From contig JAUFOQ010000017.1 of NCBI GenBank assembly GCA_040285855.1, positions 1,674,001 through 1,738,000 of the forward strand: a stretch of 64,000 nt of DNA, written 5' to 3'. This document shows, in pieces, positions 1,691 through 64,000 of the stretch. The notes beneath the pieces are model-generated. The model was given only the letters and a program-made list of their open reading frames with translations. It was not told where the DNA came from and did not search any database. Origin of the DNA: Eukaryota sp. GEM-RC1. Lineage: Eukaryota. Positions within the stretch are counted from its first letter, which is position 1, and the number at the start of each line of letters is the position of its first letter. Position numbers and translations under genes: made by a program.

Positions 1691-1696
1691 GAACGT

Positions 1697-23492: not shown

Positions 23493-23519
23493 GGATGGAG
23501 GAGTGGAGATTTTTTTTCC

Positions 23520-42249: not shown

Positions 42250-42366
42250 ACTGTGAATTTCATTCCAAATGCATAAGGGCATAACCCTTCACATTTTCAT
42301 GAGATAAACCACAGTTGACAAAGTCCTCATTCGCAAAGTCTTTTAAGACGAGCTAACTTCATAGAT
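42250..42366 (-). ncRNA. Candidate omegaRNA scaffold of the large Fanzor
   Basis: Non-coding, directly 3' of the stop. GUCU-uaaa-AGAC hairpin and a long stem AAAUGUGAAGGG-uuaug-CCCUUAUGCAUUU (42267-42296). Confidence 0.45.
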
Positions 42367-45260
42367 TCAAGATTCCTGATCTTTCTGGTTTACGTTTACG
42401 TGTGAGTCCTTGGGTACATATTTCTTAGGCTTATTTGGACAAGTTGCTCTGTTATGCCCAGGTTGAAAACATATACCACACTTGTTAGGACCTCTGACTT
42501 TTGTTAGAGGACACTTTGCCTTACCCTTACCCTTACTCACAGTCTTTTTCTTAGGAATCTGATCTGTATTCCCGCCATCCACGACAGGTGTTGTTTGAGA
42601 TTTTGGTCTCTCGAGGATGGCAGGTCTACCTTGACCTTGAATTGTTCCATTTACAATAATGTAAATATTGATAGCAGAATTGAAATCTCTATTCCAGAGG
42701 ACATGACATTTAGCACATTCAACTAAGCCCCATGGTGAGACTTTGTTGTTCTTCAATCTTTCTTTCGAAAATGTCAACTGGTCTGTCCATTCTTCATCAA
42801 AGTTACGCTCCACAATATTGTCTAATTGATTGTGTTCAATAATTTCCTTTTTTAATTCTTTTCTCTTCCTTCTGTAACTTCTTCTTCCAATTAGGATCAG
42901 TGACTTTGATCCTTTCAGGATTGGAACAGATACCTTCGTCATTTCTGGAAACACATGCAGAGCAACATTTGCTGGTCTTAAATTCATCAACTAGGAACAC
43001 TTTAAATCCAAATTTTCTCAATAATTTCCGAATTGAAGCACCTTTTACAGTCGATGCTTTACGTCTTCTTCGACGAAAAGCAGTGTCGTTCCAGTCTCCA
43101 TACCCAACAACGACTTCATCTGGGTTTCCAAACTGGAGAGTAAATCTGTGAAGCATGTTTTTCTCACTTCGTTCCTTTCTTGAATACTGTGTTAAGCGTC
43201 TACGTCTAAACCACTTTTCTTCGTAAATTCCTTCAGTATTTCTTTGATCAGTAGTGGGTGATCGTAATAAAGAACAGGTAATTTCTTTACCAAGAACAAA
43301 AGCAGAATACTGAGTCAATTCACAAGATTTACTACCTGGCGAGTTAGAGCCCCATTGATCTAAAATTTGTTGCCCATTTATGTCAATGCGTCTGCCATCT
43401 GGAATGTGAATAAATTGGGTAGAGTATTGTTGTAACCGTTCAGATTCAGATAAACGGTGGAGATTATATCGTCTTATTTTCTTCTCCAGCTTCCTCTTCT
43501 TTCTCTTAGCTCTTTTTCTTTCCTTCCTTGTTTTTTTCTTTTCCATGGAGACTTTTTAATATCGGCATTGCGCTCCCCAGCAGTGTATCTGAATACTTTC
43601 CAATCATCACGATTTTTCAACTTGACAGTTGATGGTTTGTCAATAGTAGGTGCGTCTTTCCAATCCTTCAATTCCTTTTTTAATTTTTTCAAGCTTCCTT
43701 TTTTCTTTGATGATTTTGGAGAAATCTTTCTTCTTCTGATTTTGGCTGATGTATCGAAACCTTCGATTTCCTTTTCCTCCTTAGATTTTAAAGAAGCACA
43801 ATACATCAAATCATGCTGATTAGGATCAATAGCAACAATTCTTTTGGATTTCAAATTTAAGTTTTGAATTTCTGTGGAACTCAAAGAATCAATGTACCTT
43901 TCAGTAGCTGTGTAGTCAACTGCTTTCACCTTCTTATGAGGATTTCCTCTCCCATCAAGCAGATCTTTCCGCATCATCATTAAATTACAGCTAACTCCAT
44001 CTGTAGAAATAGAACTGTTTTTGAAGTCATGAGACAATGACTTTGGAAGACACTTTGGTTTCAAAACTGAGTGCCAAATATCTTTTCGAACGTCATCAAA
44101 GCTACCTTTCATTTCTGATGCATAAACTTCTTTAAACCATGTAGTATCCAATCTGATATGATTAGGAATCAGTGATTTTGTTAGAGGAAAAGGATTATTG
44201 GCAGTAACACCAGGACAAGAGTCCTCAACAAGACGTTTCAAATACACTGCATGACTTAAGAATTTCAAAGGATCTACTTTTTCAGCATAATAGATTGTTT
44301 TCTCCATTTTACCTTCAAAAAAAGTAAACAAATAGTTAAAAAATAGTAAACTCAGTCTAGAATTGGGATCAGGAAACACTTCAACATCTTGAAAATTAAT
44401 TTTTGAAATTTCCCCATTAATGATCAACTGTCTGACTTCATTAAGCTTTGTACACAACTCTTGTCGTAGATTCTTATCAGTAAGCTTGTTAAGTCTATCT
44501 TTTTCAGGGTAACCAAATTAAATACTTGAAAAACATATTCATGAAAGTGATCACTCATGTTAGTCTTGTAATTCGTTATAATTTCAGTAGCCATGTAATG
44601 CAATATACGAGATAAACGATGACTACTGGGAAACACAATCCTATCAAGTCCAACAGATCGAGCAGCTATTTCTAAACGAGGAATATAATACATCAAGAAG
44701 TGTTGAGCAAACTGATTTTGAGTTGAGCCATCATTTGTGTTAGAAATTATGTTTTCTAAAGATTCTTGCACAGTCTCAATATGATTCTGATTGTTTACAA
44801 GTTTGTTGTCCCTAATCGTCATCATAGACAACACTTGTTCCATTGATTTCAACGTAAAAAAATTCTTCCAGTCTGGCAATTCAATTTTGGCAGTTTGAAT
44901 TTTAGTCCAAAGGTCAGGTTCAGGTTTAGGTTCATCACTCGCATCTTCAATATTTTCTAATTTAATAGGAGGAGTAGCAGCATGGATAGACTCTGAATGT
45001 ACATCTGTTTCTTCATCAGTTGACTCATCTGTATCAGAATTCATTTCTTCCTTAACAGTTACATTTGGAACAGTAGCAGGCAGTAACTTCTGAATGTAAC
45101 CTATAATACCTGAATGGTGAAAATTATGAACAAAAAATGTTTCAAAAAGAGAGTACTACGGACTCTTACTTGGTGAGCTCTCTTAACACGAGATTCAATA
45201 AATTTAACCTTCGCTTTGGACACAACATTGTCTAGTCGTTTCTTAACCACTTTCATTGGT
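42367..45260 (-). CDS. Fz1: Large Fanzor1 nuclease region of the polyprotein
   Basis: KVVKKRLDNVV..RVKRAHQV..STLFLK N-terminus, PNHIRLDT, ISTDGVSC, RuvC-I IVAIDPNQHDL, FRYT, FGNP..VVGYGDW, RuvC-II LVDEFKTSKCCSAC, CAKC..RuvC-III WNRDFNSAINI, GRP; then CGICFQPGHNRATC. Confidence 0.9.
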
Positions 45261-48200
45261 GACTTTGAACGTAATGTTTGTTTTTTGGGATCCAATAGGT
45301 CAGCCAACAAGTACTCAATCAGAGGTAATTGTTGAATTGAGTTCATCAACAATAGCGGTCTTGTCGATTCCTTGGCCCAAAGTTCATTTACTTTCTCCAA
45401 ATTTCTTACAAATTTCTTTTTAATCTTATCGACCTTCACTTTGGGATTGTCTGGAACTAAAACATTAATACTGTCAATTATGCCATGCAAGTTTTGGACA
45501 TTATTGACCAATTGAACTTCATCAGGATCAGAGTCATGATTAAGTTCTTCCAAGCGTTTGACAGTTTCATTTTTAGAAAAATTATTCATTTCAAGAAAAA
45601 TTTGAACAACATTTTCCAAAAAACGGCCACCAGTAAAGACATAAAAATTCTTCAGTACAGCATTCAAATCGAGACTAAAAAACGGACCAAAAGTTGTTTC
45701 CTTACACCATTTGTTGAACCAAAAGGGAATGTAGGGTTTAAATTCTGGAAAAGTAAACGTTGTATTGATTTTGAGGACTTGACAACGTGATACAAGAAAG
45801 GGAAATGTATCTAAGTGAAAGTCATAACTCACAAACAATCGTGGACAATGTTGAGTAATGAAGGAAATGAAGTTTTTAAGCATACTGGATTCACTATCTG
45901 AAATATGTAAGGTACACAAATCCAAGTTTGTAGTATCAAAGTTGCCATGAGAAAATAAATGTTTTTCATTAAACTCATTGTGATCAATGATCTCGATGGA
46001 AATTGATACAATAGGATCAACAGAAGAATCACGTTTAACTTCTAATTGATCTTCAGCTTCACCTTCAACAGTTTCAATGTCATCATCATCTTCTTGAACA
46101 AGTTGAACATTTCTGCCATTAATTCTTTCTTTTTGGCAAAATCACTTTGAACATGAATTAAACAAAAAGTTGGTAGATTGTTCCAAAGTAGAGGGGATTT
46201 AAGAAAGTCTTGAATTTGTATTTCTTCTTCTATAGGCTCAGTGTGTAGATTTACTTCCATTTTTTGGATTTCTTCTTGAATTGGCGATGGATACGACATA
46301 ATGGAGGCCTTAATTTTGGGTGGTAGTTCAGATGGTGGTACTTCAGATGATTCCAATGTGGACATACGGCGGTGAGTCTTTCGTATTGGAGTGTCACCAG
46401 TTGAAACAAGGGAGCTGGTAGTTCTAAATTTATTTCGTTGAATTAAAGGTGAACCTCGTGGTGATGGAATATCAGAAATTTTGGCCTTTCTTTTTTTAGT
46501 GCTTAAACCAGTAGATGCTTTAGTGCTAGCAAGACGCTTACCTGAGATTGGTGACGCAGAAACACGCGACAACTCAACAGGACTAAAAGTTTCAAAATGT
46601 TCCAAAATTTTACTTCGAGACTCGTGAACAGCAATAGTGGTATTACCCAGCAGTTCTTTAACATCAGTCCACCTTATGACCACAGATTGATCTAAATTCA
46701 TTAAAAGATCAATGTATTCGAGAACACAAAAACCAGAGTCAGTTAGAGTATGTTTGATATTTGATGGAATAAATTCTATATTTCTGGTTTCACACATTGA
46801 CAACACTGAATAAATTTTTGACACAATTGTAAATAAATTGGAGGAAGATGGTGCAACTGGCATTTGGTTAGCAGGAAATTCTCTGGCATAATCATCCTCA
46901 ACGTAGGTCGGATCAATGAATAAAATATGACTTGTAGGAGATGAAATGATCAGAATAATTAAACCCCAATGACGACCATCAGCAGTAAGATCACACATTG
47001 CACTATTGACAGGAACAAGTAGCATTTGTTGGTTGTTTTGACCACATTGGAAGAATTTCTGCGTCAAAAAATCTGAAAATGGATATTTATTATAGGGTTG
47101 GTCACCATATAATAACGGATATAAATCAGTTGGCCCAATTACATAGTCATAAAAGATTAAACCTGTTGATTCCACAAGTATTTTGGAATATTTGATGAAC
47201 AATTGATCGTCAACATAAGTAAACAATTTTTGAATCTGTTTACGGAGATCTGCAGCATTAAGTTCAATGTTAACTTGGATTAAAGCACGTTCAATAGAGA
47301 TCAAAGATAGATTGATGCCATCCCTTGAAATGAGTTCAACAAATTTTTGAATATAACCAATAACATAAATACCACAGTCATTAGGAGTCTGTGTCTTGGT
47401 GATGTTGACCCTCTGTACGTTCAATGTTACTTTCCTACATAATTCATCTACAACAGAACTTAGATAAGAAGAACCGACAATTGGATCCACAAATATCGCG
47501 TTGTTTTCCGCACAGTCTATTACCATTAGACCCCAATGAACTCCTCCAGATCCACCTGTTGTATTCATAGCATCGTTGAGAGGAACAGCGAAGTATCTGG
47601 TGCTTCTCTCCCGGGCGTCATCAATCTTATTTTGGCAGTATCCATCAGTTAAAAAATCTGACCACATCTCATCTGGAGCAATGAAATAGCATTCCCAATC
47701 AAGGTTTGCTTCTTTGAATTGGTGTTTTGAGTATTCAGAAAGGGCGTAATCATCTATCCATTGGCCAGGATTCAGATACTCTAGGGAGTCTTTGGACAAC
47801 GGTCCGGGATTGGATTCCACGTCACCATCCATGGTGAGATCTTCTTTGAATGGGGGACGGGAGGAGAAAACTGTACAAGAGAGGTCTAAAACACTTCGCG
47901 AGGAAGAACCACACACGGCATAGCTCTTGTTTTTAAGTATGTGTGTGTAGTTCATTGGAGGGGAATTGACACGGAGGGGAGAAACTGTACCATCAGCGAG
48001 AGAAGAACCACACACGGCATAGCTCTTGTTTTTAAGTATGTGTGTGTAGTTCATTGGAGGGGAATTGACACGGAGGTGAGAAACTGTACCATCAGCGAGA
48101 GAAGAACCACACACGGCATAGCTCTTGTTTTTAAGTATGTGTGTGTAGTTCATTGGAGGGGAATTGACACGGAGGTGAGAAACTGTACCATCAGCGAGAG

Positions 48201-48450
48201 AAGAACCACACACGGCATAGCTCTTGTTTTTAAGTATGTGTGTGTAGTTCATTGGAGGGGAATTGACACGGAGGGGAGAAACTGTACCATCAGCGAGAGA
48301 AGAACCACACAGGGCATAGCTCTTGTTTTTAAGTATGTGTGTGTAGTTCATTGGAGGGGAATTGACACGGAGGTGAGAAACTGTACCATCAGCGAGAGAA
48401 GAACCACACACGGCATAGCTCTTGTTTTTAAGTATGTGTGTGTAGTTCAT
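42367..48450 (-). CDS. Polyprotein (~2000 aa, reconstructed): repeat leader, 2A, Ulp1/SENP8-like protease x2, linker, Fanzor1, CCHC zinc knuckle
   Basis: Six ORFs chain through homopolymer shifts near 46130, 45135, 44500, 43550 and 42850. Bridging frames are stop-free (KERINGRNVQLVQEDDDD...; FVHNFHHSGIIG...; KDRLNKLTDKNLRQELCTK). Confidence 0.8.
46690..47797 (-). other. Tandem Ulp1/SENP8-like (C48) cysteine-protease domains
   Basis: Domain 1: LNPGQWIDD, VPLND..GGVHWGLMV, FVDP, QTPNDCGIYV. Domain 2: VPVN..GRHWGLII, FIDP, TDSGFCV. Confidence 0.85.
47800..47844 (-). other. 2A ribosomal-skipping (StopGo) peptide EDLTMDGDVESNPG/P
   Basis: Exact D(V/I)ExNPGP consensus, in frame, immediately before the protease domain. 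Confidence 0.9.
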
Positions 48451-48474
48451 TGGAGGGGAATTGACACGGAGGGG
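47903..48474. repeat. 99-bp tandem repeat, ~5.8 copies, coding (33-aa unit)
   Basis: MNYTHILKNKSYAVCGSSLADGTVS(H/P)LRVNSPP repeated with only single-base variants. Confidence 0.95.
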
Positions 48475-48895
48475 GAGAGCGAGAGGACCTCATCCCGCTA
48501 AACATGTATGCGAGAGTAATGATGAAGAGTATCTGTAAACTGATCTGGACTACAGTTGACTTTTTGCGACATCTTCAATTTGACAATACACCTGACATAC
48601 ATTCAATTTATTTTAACGACATGTGATGAACGAATAATTCTAATGACATCATGTATACACAAACATAGTACTGTACTGTATGGATTGAAACAAACCAACA
48701 TTGATGTCAATTTACTAACCTACAGTATGTTAAAAGTTATAAAGACTGCATGTAAGATTTATCTAAGTACTGTGAGTAGTGATAACAATAGATGTACATA
48801 TAAATAAGATCAAGTAAGTCACTGTCTGAGGTGTAGAATTAACCATAAAAACTAAGAACGAAAAAATTTATAAAGAACGAAAAAATGAATAAAGA

Positions 48896-51800
48896 CTATT
48901 CCCTCATTTTGTATTCCACATCTGTAAGATTTTGCCTCAAAAACGCGTGGAAAGTATTCCACTTTTTGCTTCGGGGTTGGTCGTTATCCATGATAACAAA
49001 CAGTGCGTTTTCAGTTCTTTGTTGAATAAAAGGAAATGTTGATGGCGTATCTGGAAGATCAATAATAATTGATATCTGACACCTAAATTCGGAAAATTTT
49101 TCCAAAATTCCCCAATTAGCAAACAATACCGAGTTTGGTTTCGTGTTGAACTGGTTCATTGTGAAATTATAAGCACTTTGAGTGACAGGTTTGGTTTTGC
49201 TACTGGCAAATTGGAGGGCATTAATGGTACCGTTCTTGGTTTCTTCACTAAACAAACTGCGATACGTCAGTACATCTTGTCTAGATTTAAACAATACAGC
49301 AATTTTTTCATGGGGTAACTTCCTTGTTTGGAGGATACCATGTAATAACCTTTTCAAAATTGAACTGATATCCGCAAATTTGCAATGAACAAGGTTGAAC
49401 TTTTTTCCTTTCAGTCGAATAGGAGGTCCTTCAGCTGGTGATAGTTTGTTTGGGTGGGATGATTTATCCAAACTTCTACAATATGATTGGAAATCAATTT
49501 GTTCCAAAGTTGTATCACCACCTGAACGACACAAAGTCATCACTTCTCCTGACACATCAACAATTCCAATTGTCATTGAAGTATGAGAAAAAATAGTTGA
49601 CATGGCTCTTGTATGCCCGTAGATAAACAAAATGAGATTTCTTTTTGTTTTGCACTTATACCTATACACGTTCCATCATTAGTGATACACAAAAATAATT
49701 CAAATGCTTCAATGAAAATACAGTCTACCAGACTAATTTTCTCACTTGTAGGGTAAAAATCATAGACAGATTCAAGACAGTGTATGACATTGCTTTCCCC
49801 ATCAGTTCTTATGAGATCTACGGATGACTCGCTTAAAACCAAAACAAAACCTTCTTTGTAAGCATGAAGTTTGGTGAAGAGCTTTCTTGGTCTATCTTTT
49901 GGTTCACGTTGCAAGTCAGCATGAAATTGAATATCTGTCACACTGACGGTGTAATCAGTAATGTAAATGAAACTGTCACATAAGGTTACAATATCCTTTA
50001 ATCCTGTTGTTTGACTAGTTAAAGTCCGCCTGACTCCAGACATTTCAAGTTCGTATATAAACTTTTCCGTCATTACCAAGCATCCCCTAAAATAGTGACC
50101 AGGCAAAAATATTGCAACAATTCTTTCATCAAGTTGGTGTTGCGTATATTTTCCATTTTCGGTACCATTTTCTACGCTGTCTTCATAAGATGACTCATTG
50201 TATAAAGGTAGATTAAGGAGTTTAATCATTGACTCTTTAACATAAATAACAAATAATCCATCAGACGAAACGTCAAATGGACTATCACTATTGATTTTGT
50301 TCAAAATTGAACTGGATTTGTGATCTGTAAGATCAAGAATCATAAGATAGTATGAGCCATTGAGAAGACAACGAGCAACAATTTGAGTTGTCGCCGGTAT
50401 AATTACACACTGTTGAACGACAAGTTGTACAAAGGTAAATTTACCAGCTATGTTAGGTACAGGTCTTTGAAAACAAATTTTTGAGCCTTCCATGACGCAA
50501 TAGGTTCTGTACTATACAAAGCAGTAGAAGAAGTAGTAAAAGCAGTAGTAGAAGTAGTAGTAGGAGCAAGAGTAGTAGAAGCAGTAGGAGCAAGAGTAGT
50601 AGAAGCAGTAGAAATAGTGGAAGCAGTAGAAATAGTAGGAGGAACTGTATCTTGCCAATACAATGTAATAATAGATCCTTTTCCAGTAACAAAATAAATT
50701 TCTGGCTTTTTGAGAGAAGGAAAAATTTTGATAATACCTGCATCCCAGTTTCGTTTAAAACGATCATTAAAAAAAGACAGGAGCGGCTCGATTATCAGTA
50801 TTAAAGAAACCAATACGATTCTTTCTAGTCACAAAAATGATGACTTTGGGATGACCATATATTCCACATGCATCAACAATACAATCATATGGCTTAGGTC
50901 CTTCCAACCACCCCTGTGGTCTTAACAGAAAATCTACTTTGATTTGAGATTTTGAAACCGTCACAATATGTAACGTTAACCATTTAGTTTTAACGGTTTC
51001 ATCTAACCGAAATGGTACACTACCAGCAGCATCATAGTCGGATGCGTCCACATCAATAATTGTTCCAGTAGGTTTCATGGGGGACGATTTAATGGCCTGA
51101 ATCTGATAGAACAAACGAGTAGGATCCATTTGTAATCTTTCACACAAATAAACACCTAATCTACATCGATTCAGGCAACCAATCATTGATACTAAAGGTT
51201 TCAGAACAGAATCATCGTATTCATAGCATATTTCCGACTTATGCGCAATATCAAATGATACCATTTGTGTGGTAATACATCCGTAGCTGAACACACGAAC
51301 ATACATCAATTGTAAAAATAAGTTGGACAAAGTACGTTCAAAATAACAGCACAAAGTTGGAAGTGCCTGTTGCGGAGTCACATATACACCTGACCATTGA
51401 TCACATTTATCGACAGGTAATCGAGTGAAAAGAGAGTTGTAGAATTTGAGATCAATACGACCACTATGACCGTTCAGAGTACTGTACTTAATAGGACTTT
51501 GATAGTAGTAATTTGAGGCTCTTAAACGCACATTAACGGAGAATGTTTTTTCTTTACATAGTAGACCAAAATTTAACAAATCTGCAACATTTACACCGGC
51601 ACTGTTACTGGAGTACCATTGATTAGTTTTGAAGAATACTGAGGGATAGGGGTGTATATTCAATTTGGGGAAAAACGGATGGGGTAATTTAGATGATGAA
51701 GAATTTTCAATCATTTTGGCCAAAATAAGTGAAATAACTCTGTTATTTTTACAATTACTCGCTGTAAGTTCGATTTCCTTGTCGGATTCAACAGAAAGTT

Positions 51801-54800
51801 CTAATTTAACAGCATTTGTGTCCCGCTGTCGCTGTTTTGAAGACTCCAATAAACTATTCAATTTTGTTATCTTTGCGTTTAATTCATCAACAGAAACACT
51901 TTCAAATAACGTCTTTTCAAATGGTTCAACAGGCAGCTGAGTTGAAGATCCTTGTAATGCCATGTCTTGTTGCATACTTCGAAACATTATTGAATTTTTC
52001 GGGTAAGACGACGCAAACAACAAAGTCAATTGTGAAAAATCGAAATTAGATGGAACAAGTGTTTGATAAAAAGATTGATCCTTAAAATCACTCCATTCTT
52101 TTTGATTTAGATCCTGTTTCCTCTCTTTTTCATGTTTATGTCCTGTATGGGCCATTTTGTACCCTTGTAATAAAGATTGGACCTGTTTGGCTTTAGCTTC
52201 TAACGAATCAAAGGTTTTGGACAATCGATTCAATTTGGATTGGAAGGTTTCACCCATACTTGATACACTACGCTTAATAACACTCAATTTGGACAGCAAT
52301 CTATCGCACCAAAACTTCAACTTCCTAAGGTCAAAATATTGTAAAATCTTCCAATTGATTGTACCGGATAACAAGGCACATAAAAATTTGAACATCATAT
52401 TCAGGTCTGAAAATCCGTGATCCGTTCCATCATCATACAAATTTAGAAAATTTCCTAGTTTTTCAACTTGGTTGATGTATTCTGTGTTGAACTTGAAGTT
52501 AAACAAATTGAAATTGAATGAACATAAAAGAATTAATCCGGCAACAACTTGATCTTGAACAAAACAATTGAATACAAAATGAAAATGTTCATGAGAATCA
52601 GCAAGAAGTGATCCCAAAAGTCCCATAGACGTCAGTTTGTCATTGATAAAACGACTCTCAAGGATATTATTCAGGTAGAGGGAGTAAACTGTTTCGTTTA
52701 CTGAAAAATCAGAAACGATAGTAGGCATGGCATTCAGAAAATCATTTGGATGAGATGAAATTTGTTTAACTTTCAAAATACAATCTTCCAATGGTGAATC
52801 TAGAATTTGTGGATCTTTTGTCGGAGACCTTGAGTACTGACCAATAAAATTAAAGTCAAATAATCTAATACAGATCCCAGGTCTTGTCCGTCCGACTCTT
52901 CCAGCACGTTGAGTAGCAGAGCATTGTGAAATGTGTGCCATAACCAATTCTTTTCTGAAATTTGGAACTCTTTCTAACCCAGTATCCAAAACAATTACTG
53001 CCGAGTCGATCGTGATTGATGACTCTGCGATGTTAGTTGCAGCAACAATCTTGAATTCATTGTTTTTACACTTGCTTGCTGCCTTGAGTTGATCCTCTCT
53101 GCTGATCTCAGAATACAAAGGATAACAACAGTTCATAGGCAAATCATTATTGTGATAACATGCTTTAACCAGACTTTCTACTTCAAAAGAACCAGGTAAA
53201 AAAACAATTAATGTTATACCTGGAACATCTGACTGTCTTGTATGAAGTTTTGTTAGTACAAAGTATTTGACAACAATTTTGTAAATAACAATTATCAATT
53301 GCAGGAGTGCGTCTGAGTTAATAATCGACGGGTGAAGTCTCTGATCTACTTTAGATTCAAAGTGTTTTTTATAATTTACCACTTCTGCACGAAAATCATG
53401 TTGATGATCACAGACAGCTTCTCGAAATCGAGGGGGAAATCCTTCAGTAAGTTTTGAATACCAGTCATTAGTTTCGAAATTCTTAAAGTCGAAAACGTTC
53501 AGGACTCTTGAGAATTGACCAGTGTCAAACATAAGGTTTTGTTGTTCTTTAAGTAAATCAGTCTCTGTCCATTGATTATCAGGGAGCAAAGTGTTTAAAA
53601 ACTGGGTTAAGTTCAGCAGTTGTTGATCCAATAGTTGCGGATGACAAACCACGTATAATGCCCGAGTTTTTTAAATTAATTTTCATTACTGTGAGTAACA
53701 GATCGACATCTATAGTTCTGTCATGAACTTCATCCACAATGACGACTTTGTAAGTAGAAACAAATGAATGCTGATTCATCAACAACATGAGAGTTAAACC
53801 AGTTGTTTGATAATGAACCAAAGTATTGTCTGAAAAATTGTATACCCCACCACCACAGTGATATCCAGCAATGGGGTAATCGTAAATAAATTTACTACCC
53901 AGTCGAGGTCTAGTTAAGGAGTTAAGAAATTCAGACAAAAAGATTGCCGAAGGTACCGTTGGTTGGGAAACAATGACTTTGCTAAAAAAAGTAAGCGCAA
54001 AAATAACAGGTGACAGTGTAGATTTTCCTGATCCAGTTGAACCAGTGATCATATAGGGTAAATCATAACTCCGATCAGAATTACAATAACACTTGATTAA
54101 ATGCTTTAATAGTTCAGTAAAACTATTCCTTCCAGTAGAAGTCGAGACAAAGGACAATTTATGATCTCGTTGAGCATGAAATAGAACATTCATCAAACTA
54201 GACAATGCGAAATGGTCTACATTGTGTCTACTAGCATATTGTTTCCAGTGAGTGATGATAATTGGAGTAATTTGAGTAATAAGGTCGCATTTTAAATCCA
54301 TCAGCTCAGTCATAAGATCATCGAAATTAGTATCATGACGGTTTACCTCAATTGGTTCAATAGCATCAACAGCATGAACATCAAGGAGAATTTCGGTAAG
54401 ATCTTCGGGTGTTTCTTCAACATCTTGTAATAAATCAATAACTTTGGCTTTCTCTGTCTTATATTTCAAAGCATCTTTAATTGCTTGTTCAACAACTTCT
54501 TCATGTGTTGTTCCATTGAATATATAGCTAATGAAAACAAATGGGAAGTTCATTAGATTTACAAAGGGTTCAAAACAATTTTCAAATTCTGAAGTGGAAA
54601 TAATGTAACTTTGATAACCTAGCATAAATACCAACAAATAAATTGAAGAAATTTGTTGATTTCGGTAATTCTCTTGATCAGTTTCATTTGAAAATAAATA
54701 TGTCTTGGCAAAGACATAAAAGCGATAGAGTGATCGAAAAATCCAGGTATCTTGTAACTTTGCATCAACATTGAGTAATCGGGAAGCATAGTTTTCAATT

Positions 54801-56158
54801 CTTACAGACATATCAATAGATGTATTATTAAAATCCTGTACTTGTTCATATTCATCAGCTTCGTCAGTTGTTTGTTCTGAAAGAACAGCTTGGCCATCGG
54901 CAGCTTCAGCATATTCTACAATTTCATTGAGTAGTTTTTCCAAGTAATTTTTGTTAAAATGTTTTGGTGGGGTCAGATCTCGCAGCCAAGTTTTTACTTC
55001 TCTTGCTGAATCAACTGTGAATGGGGAAAGAGAATCTGGCGTTGGAAAGGTATCTTTAAAAAATTTAGATCTTTGCAAATACTGATGACACAGTGTTAGT
55101 GCTATCGTCAACATTGTTGTTAACGAAAGACAACAGGCAGGATTTACAACGCGAATGAATTTCGAGAAATCAAGAGTATGAGCGGTTAAACAGCATTGGA
55201 CGGGCCTGGTCGAATCATGCTGTTGTGGAAGTATACCAGGCTGTCGGGGGAGCATACATTGATTACAAATGGCGTAACTTGAACATTGTTTATCAATTGT
55301 CAAACGTTTTTGTGCAGAAAATTGTAGAAGTTGTTGCGATGGTAAAACTTTCAGGGACGGCAAGTCAATGGAGGTGAAAACTTCATTATGATATTCTAGA
55401 AACTCAACAAAAACATGATCGACTTCTGGGGCAATCAGAGATTCAAAGAAGGATGTAATGTAATCATAAATATTTTTAACAGAAAGTCTTTTCATTGGTA
55501 GATCAAAATGAGCAAGAGCATTGTCTAGTTGAGACTTACATTCAGTAAAAGAAATGGGATCACGATCAGTCATTGCTTCTGGAACAGACTGTGAAGCATT
55601 CAGGTGATAGTGTTCCAAGCAAGTACATATACGATGTCCTGTAATGTTCTTCACAGGATGGATTACAGACTCATGTGAAATAAATGCACAGCCTGAGTGA
55701 GCGGAGGGTGGAAATGGACCGGGATTTGACTCTACATCACCGTCCATTGTGAGATTTCTTAACCAACTATGGGATGGAGAGGCATTAGATTCAGTAACAC
55801 GTACAAAACAACAATAGTTCAAGGCATGACTCTTCTTTACGAGCATGTTATCCCTATATGTTGTATTGGGGGAAGGGGGCGTAGAAAGAGAGGACTTCGC
55901 TTCAACAACGGGAGGAGAACAACAACAACAATAGTTCAAGGCATGACTCTTCTTTACGAGCATGTTATCCCTATATGTTGTATTGGGGGAAGGGGGCGTA
56001 GAAAGAGAGGACTTCGCTTCAACAACGGGAGGAGAACAACAACAACAATAGTTCAAGGCATGACTCTTCTTTACGAGCATGTTATCCCTATATGTTGTAT
56101 TGGGGGAAGAGAATGGCATTTTGAAACGATGGGGAAGATATATCCGGAGCAATTTCAT
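48896..56158 (-). CDS. Polyprotein (~2400 aa, reconstructed): repeat leader, 2A, unknown region, DEAH-box RNA helicase, T/S/A linker, beta-rich region, degenerate helicase-C-like domain
   Basis: GSTGSGKST, SQPT, TTG, DEVHDR, SSAT, VFLPG, ATNIAESSITID, QRAGRVGR. Five ORFs chain through shifts near 53590, 50770, 50480 and 49590. First ATG at ~56119. Confidence 0.8.
50520..50645 (-). repeat. Low-complexity Thr/Ser/Ala coding repeat
   Basis: TISTASTISTASTTLAPTASTTLAPTTTSTTAFTTSSTA. Confidence 0.8.
55715..55765 (-). other. 2A ribosomal-skipping peptide WLRNLTMDGDVESNPG/P
   Basis: Exact consensus, in frame, ~15 codons after the repeat leader. Confidence 0.9.
55808..56109. repeat. 117-bp tandem repeat, ~2.6 copies, coding (39-aa unit)
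   Basis: acaatagttc recurs at 55811, 55928 and 56045. Unit SPNTTYRDNMLVKKSHALNYCCCCSPPVVEAKSSLSTPP. Confidence 0.95.
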
Positions 56159-56845: not shown

Positions 56846-57415
56846 CTAAGTCATTGCTTGAGTTACTTGATTCTTCTTTTCATTCAATAAGTTTTCTTCT
56901 CTAACTGCCTTTGGAGATTTAGACTTTTTCATCTTAGAAAGTCTTGCAGAACATGAAACTTTTTGATGTTGTTCATGTTCTGCAAGATCAGACAAGTCTA
57001 TTGCTGAGTCACTTTGATCTTGAATCAAAATATTATATAAATTTTGAGAGGACAAGGAAGTAGTGGTACCATTCTTTTCTTCAAGAATATGAGTTTCTTT
57101 GTTAATAAAGAATTCAATGTTTTCCTTAAGATTATCACCAACAACATTTTTAAACCATGTTGTATTGTTGGTGGACACTGCGATATGAGAAGTACTATCA
57201 GCAGCTCGGGTGATTAAGATATAATCTCCATTAATTCCGAGATTGCAAGGTGAAGTTGAAGGAGTTGATTTTGTCTCAGTAAAAGAAAAGACATTGTATA
57301 CATCTTGGTGTTTAGATGCATACTTCCTCTGATAAGCAGAAAGACGACGTTTCCGAGACAGAACGTTTGTTGATGAGTTCATGCAAATTTTGCCGGGAAA
57401 CAAATTCTCCTTCAT
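56846..57415 (-). CDS. Hypothetical protein (strand uncertain)
   Basis: 189-aa ORF with no motif. A frameshifted plus-strand reading from 56504 is an alternative. Confidence 0.25.
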   Translation of the reverse strand: MKENLFPGKICMNSSTNVLSRKRRLSAYQRKYASKHQDVYNVFSFTETKSTPSTSPCNLGINGDYILITRAADSTSHIAVSTNNTTWFKNVVGDNLKENIEFFINKETHILEEKNGTTTSLSSQNLYNILIQDQSDSAIDLSDLAEHEQHQKVSCSARLSKMKKSKSPKAVREENLLNEKKNQVTQAMT

Positions 57416-58205
57416 CGGAATCTCAATGTCTTTGAACGAATCTTCTCTTGAAGTGATGTCAAGTCTGTTAGTACAATATCACGAACACTGCAACAGAAGT
57501 TTGATAACCTTATGCAATTGTTGTCATTGTACTTCGTTAGGAGATGATTCTGTGACCACATCTATATCAACTTCCTTAAAAGATCTTGTGTCAACTCTGT
57601 TCTACCCTTCATCAGAAACTTCTAATGTTGAGGAAGTCTTAATCAGAGTATCTCATCTTTGGCAGTTCACGCCTCTACTCAACAGTTTTCTCAACTGGAC
57701 AGGTTTAATTGATATTCTTCTTCATTGTTGTCTCAATGATGATACTTGTTTATTTTTGAAACATTTACATTTGCTGATCAATAGTTTTGCTTGTTTAGTT
57801 GGTATATTATTTTGTCACAGTTCTCGATCTTCTACAACTTTATTAATTCCTGTACTCCTCCAAAGTTCACTTCATGATGATGGTCATTTAAGATTTGTTT
57901 ATTTTAAAAAGATTGAGGATAAATTGTTGCTGTTACTTGAGGACAATGATTATTGTTTGTCTGTTTCAAAGTTTGTTTTGATTTTTGTTAACATTGTTTT
58001 AGCAAAAGGTAATTGTAATGATTATACTGAAGTTGTCAATTTGTTTAGTTTTATTTTAGAACGAAGTGATTTTGTTGACTTGAAACATGTTTTGACTTGG
58101 AAAATGTCAGGAAATGATGAGATTGATGTGGAGAATTTATGTGATGAGTTGTTGCAGTTTAATGATAGTGTAGTGAAGTATGTTTGTAAGTATCTGTGTA
58201 ACTAA
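57381..58205 (+). CDS. Hypothetical Leu/Cys-rich helical protein
   Basis: 274-aa ORF, stop followed by AATAAA and a minisatellite. Confidence 0.5.
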   Translation: MQILPGNKFSFIGISMSLNESSLEVMSSLLVQYHEHCNRSLITLCNCCHCTSLGDDSVTTSISTSLKDLVSTLFYPSSETSNVEEVLIRVSHLWQFTPLLNSFLNWTGLIDILLHCCLNDDTCLFLKHLHLLINSFACLVGILFCHSSRSSTTLLIPVLLQSSLHDDGHLRFVYFKKIEDKLLLLLEDNDYCLSVSKFVLIFVNIVLAKGNCNDYTEVVNLFSFILERSDFVDLKHVLTWKMSGNDEIDVENLCDELLQFNDSVVKYVCKYLCN

Positions 58206-58207
58206 AT

Positions 58208-58460
58208 AAATCTTGTAAAACACATGTTGTATTACAAATGTTGTGTTACAGATCTTGTGTTACACATCTTGTAAAACACATCTTGTATTACACATCTTGT
58301 GTTACAAATGTTGTAAAACACATCTTGTGTTACACATCTTGTGTTACAAATGTTGTATTACACATCTTGTGTTACAAATGTTGTGTTACAAATGTTGCAT
58401 TACAGATCTTGTAAAACACATCTTGTGTTACAGATCTTGTGAAACACATCCAGTCTTGTA
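58208..58460. repeat. 14-bp minisatellite
   Basis: Variants of cacatcttgtgtta / caaatgttgtatta / cacatcttgtaaaa. Confidence 0.9.
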
Positions 58461-59250
58461 TCTACATCCACATTTTCTTCATCCAAACTCATATCCACAA
58501 CGAAGCCACACTCTGTTACTTCTCGTTCTTTAAGAGTTATGTGACTCCCCAAACTGAAGGCTAGTGACATTTGCTGAAGACATACACCCGATACACATGT
58601 TAAATGCCATATTGTTACCCCTTGGTCTTTGATTCTCCTTCTTGTATAATAAACAGCTAGTGTCTCGTTTGCGTATCGTCGTTGCATATCTTTTATATGA
58701 CAACATCAAGACATGACAATTCTAATCCCAGTCAAACAGACTTACGCGTACTCTTTATTGTTTGGTCAATCCACTGCTTTACACTTCTCGCCAAACTTAT
58801 CGGAAACACATTCACTCTTTTCCTCTTTTAACATTTTGTGTTGATTCTATTGGAAGACGGTGCTAGATGTATTAGTTAGTCGCTGAGTAATGTCGCTGAG
58901 TAATATCATAATAGTTGGAAAGTAAGATTTGATCTATAAACAAGAAGACATAGATGTTAAAACGAAGTTTACTATTACAAAAAGAAGTCAGAGATGATAC
59001 ATATAAACATACAAACACACATCCTCCATCACTACTACTGGTGTGATATAGAAAATTCTTGCATATGAATCGTATGGAAGGACAAATGTTCACAGAATCA
59101 ATATAAAAGGACTTGAAGTCGTGAACTGCGGAAATGTGAGATTGTAATACCCCGACTGAAATACAGTCCCTGGATAAAGTCATAGTTTGAAGTGAAAGAG
59201 AAATTTGATGAAGACCAAGTTTCCCTGCGCTCAAACAATCCATCAACTCA

Positions 59251-61745
59251 ATGGCACCAACCTCTTTACACAACATCAATCTCACAGATGACCAACGTGA
59301 GATCTTTAACGCAATCACTACCAGCAGACACAACTTCTTTGTCACTGGTGGTGCAGGATCAGGAAAATCTTATCTTTTACATGCTCTCAAATACTGGTGG
59401 AATAACGCAGGATCTCGTCTCATGCGTGCTAATGGTGAAATCTTCTTCACTGCAACAACTGGGGTTGCCTCAACTGTTTTTGGTGGACAGACCATACACT
59501 CACTGTTTGGTTATAAGTTTATGAAAGAAGAAGAATCCATACATGATGTTATCAAATGTATGCCATCAAATGTCAAAATTTTGTTAAAAAATATTACTCC
59601 AAAAAATACAATGTTAATCATTGATGAAATTTCAATGTTATCCTCCAATTTGTTTCAACGGGCGAGTGACATTTTGGGCGAACTTATGCACACGCAAAAA
59701 TGTCACTCTCCGAAGAAACCATTTGGAGGAATTCAGATAATTTTTTTGGGGACTTTCTTCAATTAGCCCCTGTTGTGAAAAGTCTTGATGGAAAAGGAAA
59801 TCGAAAAGTGGTAATTTCTGATTTCGCTTTTTCATCAAGTGCTTGGAACAATTTAAATTTTAAATATTTTGAACTGACTGGTAGTATTCGACAGCAATCA
59901 GATTCCCAATTTTTTAATTTTCTAAATCAATTAAGATTGGGTCTGTTAGATAATTTTATGAAATCAATTCTGTGTACTCATTTCGAAACAGCAGAATCTG
60001 TTGAAAACCCAACAATTTTATACGGAAAGAATACTGATGTTGCTAGAGAAAATTTAAAACAATTCAAAATTCTGGCAAAATTCAGATTCCATTGAATTTG
60101 TAGCTGTTGACAAATTCAATGAATCTGAATTAAAATCTCAAATTAGAAAAAGAAGTTCTAGATTTCCAGTCAATGAATCTAATTTGGAAAAATATTATGA
60201 CATTGAAACTTCTGTGCTGACAAGTCGCTTGGATGACTTTGCTGAAAAAAAACTAGACTGTGTTGTGGGTGGACAAGTGATGTACACTCAAAACAAGCCT
60301 GAACTTGGATTAGTTAATGGTTCAAAAGGAGTTATTGTTAATTTTTCAGATACATATATTGATGTTCGGTTCAACGCTGAAGCAGAACCGAAAAGAATCA
60401 GTCAGTCAAGGTTTGCTATCGAACACTTGAATGAAATCGGAAGACCTGTTCAAGTGGCGAAAAGAATTCAGTTTCCGCTAAGACCTTGCTGGGCGATAAC
60501 AGTGCATCGATCCCAAGGTTTAACAATTGACGGGATTGAAGTTGCTATCCAGTTTTGGGAATATGCCCAACTTTATGTGACCTTAAGTAGGGTTAGGTCT
60601 TGGAGGAGTTTAAAGATTTTAAGTATTGGAAGAAGTTATCCGGTACCAAATTTGGAATTGTACCTATGGTATTATTCAACTTTTCATCCTGTTAAACCAT
60701 CCACTATTGATTTGTATGTTTTGGGAAATCAACATTGTCTTCAACGAGATTTCAATCATTTTAATTCATTGTTTGCAAACTTTTGTGCAGAATCGAGTGA
60801 ACCAATTATGGATGATGTTGTTGTTCCTGAAATTGTTCATGGTGTTGATGAAATTGTTGATGAAGTTATTGTTGATAATGTTGATGAACAAATTATTGAA
60901 AATAATGATCATCAAATTGTTGACTTGGAAAAAATCATTTAAACCATTTCGAAAAATCAAATTTATTTGAAACAGAAGCACTACTATCAGGATCCGATTC
61001 TGGTGATGAATCTGATAGTGATACAATTTCAACAAGTTTAGATGATTTTGTTGTAAATGATGAACTTGAAGAAGATGAAACTAATATTCCTCCCAAATTT
61101 ATTAATTGTGACTCAATTTTTAACAAAAATTCCCCAGAGATTGGTGTCAATAAGTCTAAACTTCCTCAGTTACCACGAGGCAACATTACTCTACCATCGC
61201 TTCCCCGTTTGAAGAAAACCCCTTTACCAACGAAGAATTTATTATTAAAAAAGAATGTCAGTGCTGGTATAGAAAGAAAAAGTTCCCAAGTATTTCCTCT
61301 TATTGATGATGAAAAGCGATTTTGTCTCAAGGAAGTTCAAACTGAAAGCTTTGAAAATGAAAAATGTGATTCCATATGTGAATATCAACAAACTGACAAT
61401 ATGACTTATGAAACAATATCATTGTCTCCTATTTTGGAGTATAATCGTGTTGCTACTTCAAAACAATTGAGAGTGGACTTAACTATTGGAATTCAGTCAA
61501 TTGTCGATAATGTACTAGATTGTATTGGATCTGAATATGCATCAAGTATGGAAGTGAAAACAATAAGAAACTGTTACATTACCGATGTGATTAATAGGGA
61601 TAATGTTGATGAACGTTATTGTAGTGATGTACTTGTGGAATTGTTTCATGTTTTGAAAGAGTATTTGAAAAATGATGAAAAGACTGGTATGTGTGTTTTA
61701 TTTGAATTATATTTAATTTTGAAAAAGATTGGAAAATATAGGTAA
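59251..61745 (+). CDS. PIF1: PIF1-family SF1B DNA helicase with acidic C-terminal extension, ~830 aa, reconstructed
   Basis: LTDDQ..F, TGGAGSGKS, TATTGVA, GQTIHS, IIDEISM, PFGGIQIIF-GDFLQLAPV, RQ, GLVNGSKG, QFPLRPCWAITVHRSQGLT, YVTLSRVRS. Shifts near 59745, 60080 and 60932. Confidence 0.9.
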
Positions 61746-61764
61746 TTTTGATAGTTTCATTTTG

Positions 61765-62345
61765 TGTTACACATCTTGTAAAACACATCTTGTATTACAA
61801 ATCTTGTATTACACATCTTGTGTTACACATCTTGTAAAACACATCTTGTATTACAAATCTTGTATTACAGATCTTGTGTTACACATCTTGTAAAACACAT
61901 CTTGTATTACACATCTTGTGTTACAGATCTTGTGTTACAAATGTTGTATTACAGATCTTGTGTTACACATCTTGTGTTACACATCTTGTAAAACACATCT
62001 TGTGTTACAGATCTTGTGTTTCAAATGTTGTATTACAGATCTTGTAAAACACATTTTGTGTTACAGAAAGCACTTGTAGTTTTGTAAATTCTAATATAAA
62101 ATAGTCAACAATTCAAAAGATCGAAGGTGTTCTTTTCAGTCAACTCTAGACATTAATAGTGAATATCTTTCTTGGCTGGGTTAACACATTGATTAGTGAA
62201 GACAGATAAGAGTCATGTCTAGGTCAACAATTCATTACACATACGACACTTTCATTACAAATGTTGTAGTTACAAATGTTGTATCACCAAATGTTGTAGT
62301 TACAAATGTTGTATCACCAAATGTTGTATCACCAAATGTTGTACA
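61765..62345. repeat. 14-bp minisatellite (same family as 58208-58460), two blocks
   Basis: 61765-62066 cacatcttgt(g/a)tta variants; 62255-62345 caaatgttgta variants. Confidence 0.9.
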
Positions 62346-62809
62346 TGTAGTTATAACTTGGTGTCTTTGTGTCTTCTGATGAATGAAGCTTCATGGACTT
62401 GATGTCGTTGACCTTAGTCTCATTCCAGATAGCATCTGATAGAATTGAAAAATGCAGTCAAAAATGACTGAAGACACAGCAGTGTATTACACGATCAGAG
62501 TTGTAGCAAACCAGCAGAGTTGTAGCAAACCTTAGTGTTTTCCTTTGGAGGATAAGATGTCAATGTGATGTATGTGTAGTAGGATGGTTCTAGTTGCACA
62601 ACGTTGAGTTTATTCATGACATGGTTGAACACAGTTCACAAGTCTAAGAACGAACACCTGCAAACACGTCTCTATCTTGAAAGAAGCTCAACACTGGATA
62701 TCAAACGATGTATGGAATCCATCAAAGAAGGTATAAGTGAATCAGTTTGGGGATATGTGGTTATGGGGTGAAGAGTTTTTGGGGTAAAATGATTTTGGGG
62801 AGTATGCAC

Positions 62810-63511
62810 TAGGGTTGTCAATGACTTGACTCAAGTCGTAAGTCGATTGACTTGAGTCAAGTCATTTCCAAGTCAAGTCATTTTTTCCGTTTGACTCAAG
62901 TCAAAGTCAAGTCGACTTGATATTTTCCAAGTCGAGTCATTTGACTTGACTTGTAAGTAATGTCGCTTTTTTTTTAGACGGCGGGCAACTGAAAATCAGT
63001 GTAAGATGCTCAAATACTGCAACTTTTTAAGTCATTAGTAAATAAACCAGACATCGTGAAGGTGATGATTCGTTCCATTCTTTAACCCTGTTAGAGGACT
63101 GGTTGGACAAGGGTTATGATATGTTAGAAGTCCGTAGTGATGACGAAGACGAAGACGTTGGTCAGCATATTGGTGAAGTTGTGGTCTAGTACTAAATCAT
63201 AATACTAAGTATCATTTATAGTTAGTGTCTGTTAGTTATTAACTTCTGCAAATGCATTTATTTCACTGACTGATTATAAACCCCGTTTTTTTTTCATTTA
63301 TACTTATTTATACTAATAAATTGATGTTAAACTATGATGAGCATTGGTTAATGATGCATTTCTATCACCCAAGTCATTATACAAGTCAAGTCATTTTGCT
63401 CAAGTCGACTTGGTACGATTTGACTTGACTTGATGAATGACTCAAGTCAAAGTCAAGTCGACTTGGGAATTTCAAAGTCAAGTCAATCGACTTGAGTCAT
63501 TGACAACCCTA
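62810..63511. mobile_element. hAT-like MITE
   Basis: 17-bp TIR tagggttgtcaatgact. 8-bp TSD gtatgcac at 62802-09 and 63512-19. Dense AAGTC/GACTT subterminal repeats. Contains a ~75-bp copy of the 20948-21022 retroelement tail. Confidence 0.9.
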
Positions 63512-64000
63512 GTATGCACCCCAAATGAATTGTACTAGTGTTTTGTCTTAATTATACTAGTTGGTTATGAGCAAAACGACTTAACAGATACTATCAAACA
63601 TTAATGACAGCTAAAATATAGATTTGACTGGACCTCGCCAACAACAATATACTCTGTGTTACACCAAGTGTTTTATTTGAGATAACATGTTTCAAACATG
63701 GTTGTTATGTATCGTACATAGTCATGTTGATGTTCAATCGACTGATTTTCGTAATGATTTAAGATAAAAGTTGTATTAAAAAACTGTTAAGTCTCTTTTT
63801 CAAACCCTGTTTGAAGGAAGAAAACAGGTAATAAACATACCTTGGTCGGTATAAAACGACCTGTAAAATCTAAACTTTCATAATGTTGCATTAAATGATT
63901 TTGGAGCTTCTTCAAAGCAAGTTTTGAAGACAAAATTTTACGACCCGGAATTTTTTCTTAACTGTTTTCACATAATTGTCTTATATTATCAACAACACTG

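What the first reader, a model, noticed from the sequence alone, without database searches (positions are those of the whole stretch)
42250..63540. Candidate new large mobile element: twin repeat-2A polyproteins (protease-Fanzor; DEAH helicase) plus PIF1
Seen: across ~20 kb there are no MITE or retro insertions until 62810. Two tandem polyproteins share one architecture (tandem-repeat leader, identical 2A core, cargo), next to a divergent PIF1 helicase and shared minisatellites. Established: Fanzor1 rides on diverse eukaryotic transposons and giant viruses; Ulp1 proteases and PIF1 are common transposon cargo; 2A peptides are known from RNA viruses and Ingi/L1Tc-type retroelements. Inference: these genes form one selfish element combining an RNA-guided nuclease, an RNA helicase, a DNA helicase and a ubiquitin-like protease with virus-style 2A expression. 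I do not know of a described element with this set, and I saw no transposase, Rep, RT or capsid.
Basis: partly seen in the sequence, partly recalled or inferred. Interest (0 to 1): 0.95.

Follow-up and report, generated by a model that had tools for sequence, protein, structure and literature searches.

The report
Fanzor polyprotein family with swappable leaders
This stretch holds one young copy of a multi-copy gene family of a free-living anaerobic protist in which an RNA-guided DNA-cutting enzyme (Fanzor1) is fused behind a protease, its start is built from interchangeable tandem repeats that a virus-style 2A peptide is predicted to clip off, and helicase genes sit alongside; no transposase was found, so it likely spreads by cutting DNA and being copied in during repair.

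Summary
Two minus-strand polyproteins each begin with tandem repeats and the same 13-residue 2A core (8 synonymous, 0 non-synonymous differences). One reads leader-2A-C48 protease x2-PolB-exonuclease-like-Fanzor1 (about 2030 aa); the exonuclease-like domain is new here. The other carries a DEAH helicase. ORF breaks look like long-read homopolymer errors; other copies read through several. Every module is multi-copy among named proteins of Eukaryota sp. GEM-RC1 (a Skoliomonas): 26 close Fanzor loci, 21 PIF1 pieces, 9 orphan-ORF copies, 7 DEAH loci. Four unrelated repeat leaders sit on 94-99% identical protease starts, one leader type is shared between both polyprotein families, and the protease is 90-99% identical on Fanzor subfamilies only about 50% alike: modules are exchanged by recombination. 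No transposase, Rep, RT, capsid or terminal repeat was found; PIF1 scores as cellular, not Helitron. That all modules move as one 20-kb unit is unproven: neighbours by locus tag 7 of 38 against 2.5-2.8 expected, from a sparse sample, without DNA of other copies. The MITE at 62810-63511 is separate. Verdict: new variant of Fanzor1 element; mobility mechanism inferred, not shown.

The parts
42127..42366 (-). 3' flank of the Fanzor gene; the element's end and the predicted guide (omega) RNA should lie here
   Evidence: Homology of the neighbouring host gene to its paralog at 35584 reaches only to about 42127; fold of 42200-42420 z = -1.7, 9 of 200 shuffles as good; no Rfam match. End and RNA not shown.
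42367..48450 (-). Polyprotein A, about 2028 codons across 5 frame breaks: repeat leader, 2A, C48 x2, linker, PolB-exonuclease-like, Fanzor1, zinc knuckle
   Evidence: read-through copies P0082 (break at 46140), P0017 and P0027 (45140, 44500), divergent P0096 (exo to zinc finger in one ORF)
42439..42480 (-). C-terminal CCHC zinc knuckle
   Evidence: Motif at 42480; Pfam zf-CCHC_2 E 0.003, below cut-off
42600..45265 (-). Fanzor1 nuclease with RuvC D (43833 motif), E (42991 motif), zinc finger and RD (42717 motif) present
   Evidence: Matches to S. punctatus, P. parasitica and G. theta Fanzor1 structures, E 9.5e-9 to 9.4e-5; motifs
45752..46033 (-). PolB 3'-5' exonuclease-like domain, acidic motifs degenerate (inactive by inference); no polymerase domain follows
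   Evidence: Pfam PF03104 E 1.2e-7, 6.3e-10 in P0096; PDB PolB hits E 0.007
46600..47802 (-). Two C48 (Ulp1/SENP8-like) protease domains; first with His-Asp-Cys, second with Cys replaced by Ser
   Evidence: Pfam E 7.8e-6; PDB C48 hits E 3e-7; Ser in 13 of 13 sequences that cover the site
47800..47838 (-). 2A (StopGo) core LTMDGDVESNPGP of polyprotein A
   Evidence: fits GD(V/I)ExNPGP of PMC3708506. Skipping not tested.
47898..48474 (-). Leader of 5.8 x 99-bp repeats, each with an in-frame ATG and one CCAAT
48896..56119 (-). Polyprotein B: repeat leader, 2A, unknown Cys/His-rich and helical N domain (54320-55717), DEAH/RHA helicase with motifs I, II (DEVH), III, V, VI, probable HA2/OB; ends at 50767 (1784 codons) or runs on through 3 more breaks to 48896 (2408)
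   Evidence: HA2/OB is a lead only (score 0.84); run-on beyond 50767 inferred
55715..55753 (-). 2A core of polyprotein B
55803..56109 (-). Leader of 2.6 x 117-bp repeats; other copies have one unit more or one fewer
56849..57478 (-). Unassigned open frame, 210 codons
   Evidence: no family; the one start variant looked up was not in the collection
57426..58205 (+). Orphan ORF X, 259 aa, Cys/Leu-rich, multi-copy
   Evidence: 9 other copies at 92-99.6%; no family; model all-helical but pLDDT 41.6
58220..58450 (.). 14-bp minisatellite, copy 1, just after the ORF X stop
59251..61745 (+). PIF1 helicase with acidic tail, about 831 codons across 3 breaks, no Rep domain in front
   Evidence: Pfam E 2e-24; copies read through two breaks; closer to cellular Pif1 (E 1.7e-24 to 3e-14) than to Helraiser (4.2e-8)
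61758..62343 (.). 14-bp minisatellite, copy 2 (61758-62065), just after the PIF1 stop, and a related 15-bp array (62255-62343)

Best explanation
The window holds a young composite copy of a multi-copy family built on an exonuclease-like/Fanzor1 fusion, whose protease, repeat-leader and helicase modules are likely exchanged by recombination and which likely spreads without its own transposase, by Fanzor-made breaks that host repair would fill by copying. Shown: copies of every module, the fusion, intact catalytic motifs in Fanzor1, the first protease and both helicases, unrelated leaders on near-identical bodies, mosaic proteins. Inferred: the tandem repeats are promoter units inside the reading frame; 2A skipping removes whatever peptide they encode, so the enzyme always starts at the same proline and leaders can be swapped freely; Fanzor1 with a guide RNA from the 3' end cuts empty sites; break repair from an existing copy, helped by the extra PIF1, writes in whole or partial copies, giving fragments, tandem pairs and mosaics; the DEAH helicase would remodel the guide RNA or R-loops and the C48 protease would strip SUMO/NEDD8 marks used in silencing or repair. 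I put the modular, recombining family at about 0.85 and the transposase-free spread at about 0.4.
For: Copies: 26 close Fanzor loci on 10 contigs, plus 10 and 13 pieces of two divergent subfamilies; 20 protease/exo pieces; 21 PIF1 pieces on 8 contigs; 9 ORF X; 7 DEAH loci on 3 contigs. Leaders: four mutually unrelated types (P0067; P0068/77/88; P0070; P0086) on bodies 94-99% identical over the first 180 aa after 2A, and the P0086 leader (protease family) matches the P0002 leader (DEAH-family N domain), 20 of 49 identical, 0 of 200 shuffles. 2A under codon-level constraint, 8:0. Mosaics: 6 proteins with C48 domains 90-99% but exo-like domain 48-51% identical to the window, against 3 with both at 97-100%. 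Tandem pairs: PIF1 twice, ORF X twice, Fanzor family three times within 12 tags; a 3' PIF1 relic in the window. No transposase, Rep, RT or capsid in Pfam, PHROGs, NCBIfam or PDB scans of the parts; no terminal repeats seen. Break-induced homing by TnpB is documented in bacteria (PMC13565253, passages).
Against: No DNA of any other copy was available, so ends, target duplications and empty sites are untested. Known TnpB homing restores an element at its own site and needs flanking homology; spread to new sites without a transposase is not demonstrated for Fanzor in what I read. A partner transposase elsewhere in the genome would not appear in my searches, and three segments (54320-55717, 49576-50760, ORF X) remain unassigned. 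PIF1 linkage is at chance level. The break between RuvC-I and RuvC-II is read through by 0 of 19 close copies that reach it, so an intact nuclease in this subfamily is inferred. No expression data.
Confidence: 0.4

Rival explanations
1. Non-autonomous DNA transposon or Helitron2-like family moved in trans by a transposase encoded elsewhere, with Fanzor1 as the usual passenger and the other genes as captured cargo.
For: Most described Fanzor1 elements are of this kind; CRe-1/2/3 are non-autonomous Helitron2 derivatives and MCi-2 has variable 5' regions on a near-identical Fanzor body without TIRs (PMC3627910 sections 8 and 12). Tandem pairs and a 3'-anchored relic fit rolling-circle copying.
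Against: No TIR or shared end motif among six candidate zones (output partly cut); PIF1 is not Helitron-like and 13 of 14 N-terminal pieces start at the same Met with no Rep. Does not by itself explain the selected 2A and leader swapping.
Confidence: 0.27
2. Several independent repeat families (Fanzor polyprotein, DEAH polyprotein, ORF X, PIF1) lie side by side here by nested insertion or segmental duplication; there is no single element.
For: PIF1-Fanzor 2 of 21 (expected 1.3-1.5), PIF1-X 0 of 21, PIF1-DEAH 0 of 21, X-DEAH 0 of 9; pooled signal vanishes at 12 tags (p 0.16-0.23); third Fanzor subfamily has 0 of 13 neighbours. Minisatellite is shared only by X and PIF1, 2A only by the two polyproteins.
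Against: The sample is too sparse to show absence: pieces of one gene co-occur in only 1 of 20 (protease/exo with Fanzor) and 0 of 7 (PIF1 halves). All 7 neighbours found lie within 6 tags, p 0.011-0.020; X-Fanzor 3 of 9, p 0.018-0.025. Leader sharing ties the two polyproteins.
Confidence: 0.15
3. Each module is an RNA-copied unit moved in trans by the host's non-LTR retrotransposons: repeat promoter and 2A at the 5' end, minisatellite tail at the 3' end, 5'-truncated relics.
For: N-terminal 2A is typical of non-LTR elements (PMC3708506, passages); tails follow the X and PIF1 stops directly; the relic at 2935-4805 keeps only the 3' end; retroelement-like fragments are in the window (label by eye).
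Against: No RT or APE in the region; the two 2A polyproteins have no such tail or poly(A); no sequence shared with the window's retro fragments.
Confidence: 0.1
4. Scattered remains of an endogenous giant virus or Polinton-like virus, whose gene sets include Pif1, SF2 helicases, CE-clan proteases, PolB and Fanzor (recalled).
For: Gene content and intronless polyproteins are virus-like; Fanzor1 occurs in large DNA viruses.
Against: No capsid, packaging ATPase, integrase or polymerase domain; DEAH matches cellular RHA helicases; no relatives in viral contigs (low sensitivity); GC 0.31-0.40, like the rest of the window.
Confidence: 0.05

Closest known systems
Fanzor1 of S. punctatus, P. parasitica, G. 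theta (PDB 8gkh, 9cf0, 9cer)
   Same: Homology from the N-terminal region to RuvC; DP motif, catalytic E six residues before the zinc finger, RD
   Different: Here fused behind an exonuclease-like domain and two C48 domains, with a 2A leader and a C-terminal zinc knuckle; no transposase or TIR found
MCi-2 (Mucor circinelloides), unclassified Fanzor1 family (PMC3627910 section 12)
   Same: Near-identical Fanzor-coding bodies with different 5' regions, no TIRs
   Different: MCi-2 has 11-12 bp TSDs and a partial Crypton recombinase in one subfamily; the section mentions no 2A, protease or helicase. TSDs untestable here
CRe-1/2/3 non-autonomous Helitron2-Fanzor1 elements (PMC3627910 section 8)
   Same: Fanzor1 without own transposase, many truncated copies
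   Different: They share ends with verified Helitrons and have introns; no such ends found here and PIF1 is cellular-type
2A-bearing non-LTR retrotransposons: Ingi, L1Tc, CR1, L2, Rex1, Crack (PMC3708506)
   Same: GD(V/I)ExNPGP near the N-terminus of a long ORF
   Different: There 2A precedes APE and RT; here it precedes a protease-Fanzor or a DEAH helicase and follows interchangeable repeats
Helitron RepHel (Helraiser, PDB 7lcc; PMC8788227)
   Same: Multi-copy Pif1-family helicase in a repeat
   Different: No Rep in front; score to Helraiser 36 bits against 56-90 for cellular Pif1
Protease- or helicase-carrying DNA transposons (AcademH, Inton/Enton; Zisupton and Ulp1-MULEs recalled)
   Same: Accessory helicase or C48 protease on a selfish element (Academ RecQ and Inton/Enton SNF2: passage)
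   Different: Those are defined by a DDE or KDZ transposase and TIRs, not found here

Membership tests
Fanzor1 | Sequence homology to characterised Fanzor1 rather than TnpB/Fanzor2 | tested here: met
   Only Fanzor1 structures are significant
Fanzor1 | RuvC D-E-D with E six residues before the C4 zinc finger | tested here: met
   AIDPNQ, DEFKTSKCCSAC, CAKC-WNRD; spacing as in PMC13565253 section 5.5
Fanzor1 | One continuous nuclease ORF | tested here: inconclusive
   Broken at homopolymers in the window; continuous in divergent P0096, but 0 of 19 close copies cross the 43530 break
Fanzor1 | Omega RNA at the 3' end with variable guide; RNA-guided cleavage | not testable with these tools
   No copy DNA or RNA reads; weak fold only
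2A/StopGo | D(V/I)ExNPGP core conserved in frame | tested here: met
   12 of the first 114 proteins fetched carry it
2A/StopGo | Ribosome skipping, which needs the upstream tract | not testable with these tools
   PMC3708506 shows the motif alone is not sufficient
Helitron/Helentron | HUH Rep fused to or beside the helicase | tested here: not met
   No Rep family hit; no ORF of 150 codons in 58206-59211 on the PIF1 strand
Helitron/Helentron | Hel-type Pif1 | tested here: not met
   (score comparison with one Helitron protein; no tree)
DDE/KDZ cut-and-paste transposons | Transposase gene | tested here: not met
   No hit; unassigned segments remain
DDE/KDZ cut-and-paste transposons | TIRs and TSD | tested here: inconclusive
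   None seen in the window but the right end is unknown
Non-LTR retrotransposon | RT with APE or RLE endonuclease | tested here: not met
Polinton / endogenous giant virus | Capsid, packaging ATPase, PolB polymerase, integrase | tested here: not met
   Only the exonuclease-like domain
DEAH/RHA helicase | Motifs I, II (DExH), III (SAT), V, VI | tested here: met

The most novel reading that the evidence does not exclude
A new class of eukaryotic selfish element with no transposase, RT or capsid: an RNA-guided nuclease makes the break, element-encoded PIF1 and DEAH helicases and a ubiquitin-like protease steer host repair into copying the roughly 20-kb element into new sites, and 2A skipping insulates the enzymes from freely swapped tandem-repeat promoters, a natural multi-gene homing drive in a eukaryote.
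Probability: 0.22. Interest if true: 0.92.

Novelty: new variant of a known kind. Interest (0 to 1): 0.7.

Why it matters
What Fanzors do in eukaryotic genomes is open, and several Fanzor1 families have no known transposase. This family has dozens of young copies in a cultured protist with a near-complete genome, so ends, guides, empty sites and targets can be read off and tested. The exo-like and protease fusion is a new Fanzor1 architecture in my searches. A 2A peptide kept by selection behind interchangeable repeat leaders, on an element without reverse transcriptase, would be a new use of StopGo: decoupling promoter turnover from protein sequence.

Tried and rejected
No whole genome held. 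Sequencing runs: none was listed, so breaks and expression are untested. DNA relatives: none confirmed in viral contigs, metagenomes or phages. Atlas: no usable hit for the N domain of polyprotein B; no fold above TM 0.5 for the DEAH C-terminal part. AlphaFold of ORF X was unusable (pLDDT 41.6), so no fold search was run; the fold job for 54320-55717 had not finished. Profile of alignment A1 and P0112 found nothing in PDB; a RecA2-like look of 48899-49576 and a beta-propeller look of 49576-50511 are impressions only. ORF X is unrelated to the PIF1 tail. The two leader units of the window are not detectably related in DNA (62 of 1000 shuffles as good); one CCAAT in each is weak. The second Fanzor-like gene at 23656-25484 is unrelated by BLASTP. 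Introns as cause of the breaks were rejected because other copies read straight through with the same residues. Programmed -1 frameshifting at 43530 stays possible (A-run of 7) but PIF1 shows the same shared break pattern (0 of 14 cross 60075). Earlier findings: three look-ups, nothing shown. Rfam: 0 matches.
Full report
Setting. The window is AT-rich eukaryotic DNA. No genome or reads were available, so evidence on other copies comes from predicted proteins. All named close relatives of the parts are hypothetical proteins of Eukaryota sp. GEM-RC1, one of TZLM1-RC. PMC11316075 (passages) describes Skoliomonas sp. GEM-RC as a free-living metamonad with a 33.5-Mb nanopore R9.4 assembly corrected with Illumina, 48% repetitive, 14,268 proteins, repeat-masked before gene prediction. 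That the window comes from this organism is my inference.

Anatomy. Polyprotein A (48450-42367, minus) reads 99-bp repeats, 2A, two C48 domains, a disordered linker, a PolB-exonuclease-like domain, Fanzor1 and a zinc knuckle. Protease domain 1 has His, Asp and Cys; domain 2 has Ser for Cys in 13 of 13 sequences covering it. The Fanzor triad and zinc finger are present. Polyprotein B (from 56119) reads 117-bp repeats, 2A, an unknown domain and a DEAH/RHA helicase most like cellular enzymes. On the plus strand lie orphan ORF X and a PIF1 with an acidic tail, each followed at once by the same 14-bp minisatellite. The left limit is 42127-42366; the right limit is unknown. The MITE at 62810-63511 has its own 8-bp duplication (the hAT label is recalled).

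Are the polyproteins real? Ten of 11 breaks examined contain a run of five or more A/T (or four G), against 27-70% for random windows of 40-150 bases. Named copies read through 46140 (P0082), 45140 and 44500 (P0017, P0027), 59750 (P0046 and others) and 60930 (P0061); divergent P0096 runs from the exo-like domain to the zinc finger in one frame. At 60075 other copies end in a different frame from the window, as variable under-calling of one A-run would give. Against: no close copy crosses 43530 (0 of 19 that reach it, of 24 examined) or 60075 (0 of 14), P0003 shares the 53600 break, and nothing tests 50767, 50480, 49600 or 42850; searches were limited by length, so long intact copies could be missed.

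Copy number. From cluster listings (15 of 18 members shown for the largest): 26 close Fanzor loci on 10 contigs, 10 and 13 pieces of two subfamilies at about 58% and 44% identity, 20 protease/exo pieces, 21 PIF1 pieces on 8 contigs, 9 ORF X, 7 DEAH loci on 3 contigs plus divergent P0002. I dropped the window's own proteins, unnamed P0083 and P0074 (probably the window's own model). Zero overlap between 14 N and 7 C pieces of PIF1 implies more than about 33 loci if sampling is independent. An 82% relic of the PIF1 3' end lies at 2935-4805, split by a TA-flanked insertion.

Module exchange, the strongest new result. The 2A cores differ at 8 synonymous and 0 replacement sites. Four unrelated leader types precede protease bodies 94-99% identical over 180 aa (P0069, at 84-87%, carries gaps and shares a leader type), and a protease-family leader matches a DEAH-family leader (20 of 49, 0 of 200 shuffles). 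Repeat number varies among 99% identical DEAH copies. Six proteins join a near-identical protease to a 48-51% identical exo-like domain, and six pieces of the third subfamily start at one Met without the protease. So exo-like/Fanzor1 is the old core; leaders and protease are exchangeable.

One element? By locus-tag distance within contigs (approximate tag ranges; two tags derived from accessions), 7 of 38 PIF1, X or DEAH pieces lie within 6 tags of a Fanzor-polyprotein piece, expected 2.5-2.8, p 0.011-0.020; at 12 tags still 7, expected 4.5-5.0, p 0.16-0.23. Singly at 6 tags: X 3 of 9 (p 0.018-0.025; two share one Fanzor), DEAH 2 of 8 (p 0.11-0.13), PIF1 2 of 21 (p 0.39-0.44); PIF1-X, PIF1-DEAH, X-DEAH and all third-subfamily pairs 0. 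Ten pairs at two distances were tested, without correction. Controls show the sample cannot show absence: pieces of one gene co-occur 1 of 20, 0 of 7, 0 of 2, 0 of 2, and the one pair joins two subfamilies. Linkage is therefore suggested for X and DEAH and open for PIF1. P0056 joins a PIF1 start to sequence that lies upstream of PIF1 here, hinting at head-to-tail arrays.

Mechanism. No transposase, Rep, RT or capsid was detected and PIF1 scores as cellular, whereas PMC8788227 (passages) finds most multi-copy eukaryotic Pif1 to be Helitron-derived. I commit to break-and-copy: Fanzor cuts, host recombination copies, extra PIF1 aids long-tract synthesis (its role in break-induced replication is recalled; I saw only a reference title), and the same process shuffles modules. 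All steps of this are inferred. Mobilisation in trans is the close rival.

Literature. Read: PMC3627910 passages and sections 8, 12; PMC10711439 passages; PMC13565253 passages and section 5.5; PMC3708506 passages; PMC12338488 passages, 0 occurrences of Fanzor or helicase in the main text. Searches Fanzor+2A peptide (4 papers), Fanzor+Ulp1+transposon (2), Fanzor+Skoliomonas (0), and searches listed nothing whose title or abstract start describes this arrangement; those listings were not read further. The library lacks most subscription papers and Repbase, and I opened no supplements; Fanzor and 2A catalogues in supplements may include these proteins.

Verdict. Real, multi-copy and unusual: a new variant of Fanzor1 element with 2A-decoupled, swappable leaders. 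Interest 0.7; a 0.22 chance of a new transposase-free class.

Noticed in passing
window 23656-25484 (-): A second, unrelated Fanzor/TnpB-like gene (Pfam TNB E 1.8e-5, AIDPN motif) in two frames, GC about 0.44, directly upstream of a RING gene with MATH-like repeats (21401-23555; MATH by eye).
   Followed up: partly
window 62810-63511: MITE with TAGGGTTGTC terminal repeats and 8-bp duplication GTATGCAC; 76 bp of its interior recur at 20947-21022 (97%).
   Followed up: partly
window 3112-4516: 1.4-kb element with terminal inverted repeats and TA duplication inserted in the PIF1 3' relic (2935-4805).
   Followed up: partly
window 221-1748, 33271-34826, 26963-27373, 38537-38929, 19839-20017: Fragments that look like non-LTR retroelement 3' halves of two families (88-95% alike within the larger family); the tail of protein P0014 appears to run into such an end, as if that Fanzor copy is interrupted.
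   Followed up: no
window 35585-37612 (+) and 39564-42056 (-): Inverted pair of host membrane-anchored, acidic, Cys-rich repeat proteins without a Pfam family; the Fanzor 3' end lies within 240 bp of one copy's 5' region.
   Followed up: partly
window 58403-58870 (-): Short broken frame with Cys/His spacing reminiscent of a RING or PHD finger between the first minisatellite and PIF1; no PHROG or NCBIfam hit.
   Followed up: partly
window 43531-43537: A-run of seven between RuvC-I and RuvC-II where all 19 close copies that reach it break; either a systematic error or a -1 frameshift site.
   Followed up: partly
protein P0002: Divergent polyprotein-B N domain joined to a histidine phosphatase (Pfam E 2.7e-34) instead of the DEAH helicase: different cargo or a gene-model chimera.
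   Followed up: no
window 50523-50641 (-): Thr/Ser/Ala-rich low-complexity repeat inside the possible continuation of polyprotein B.
   Followed up: no
window 58220-58450, 61758-62065: Each minisatellite unit is a small palindrome (ACACA-TCT-TGTGT type).
   Followed up: no
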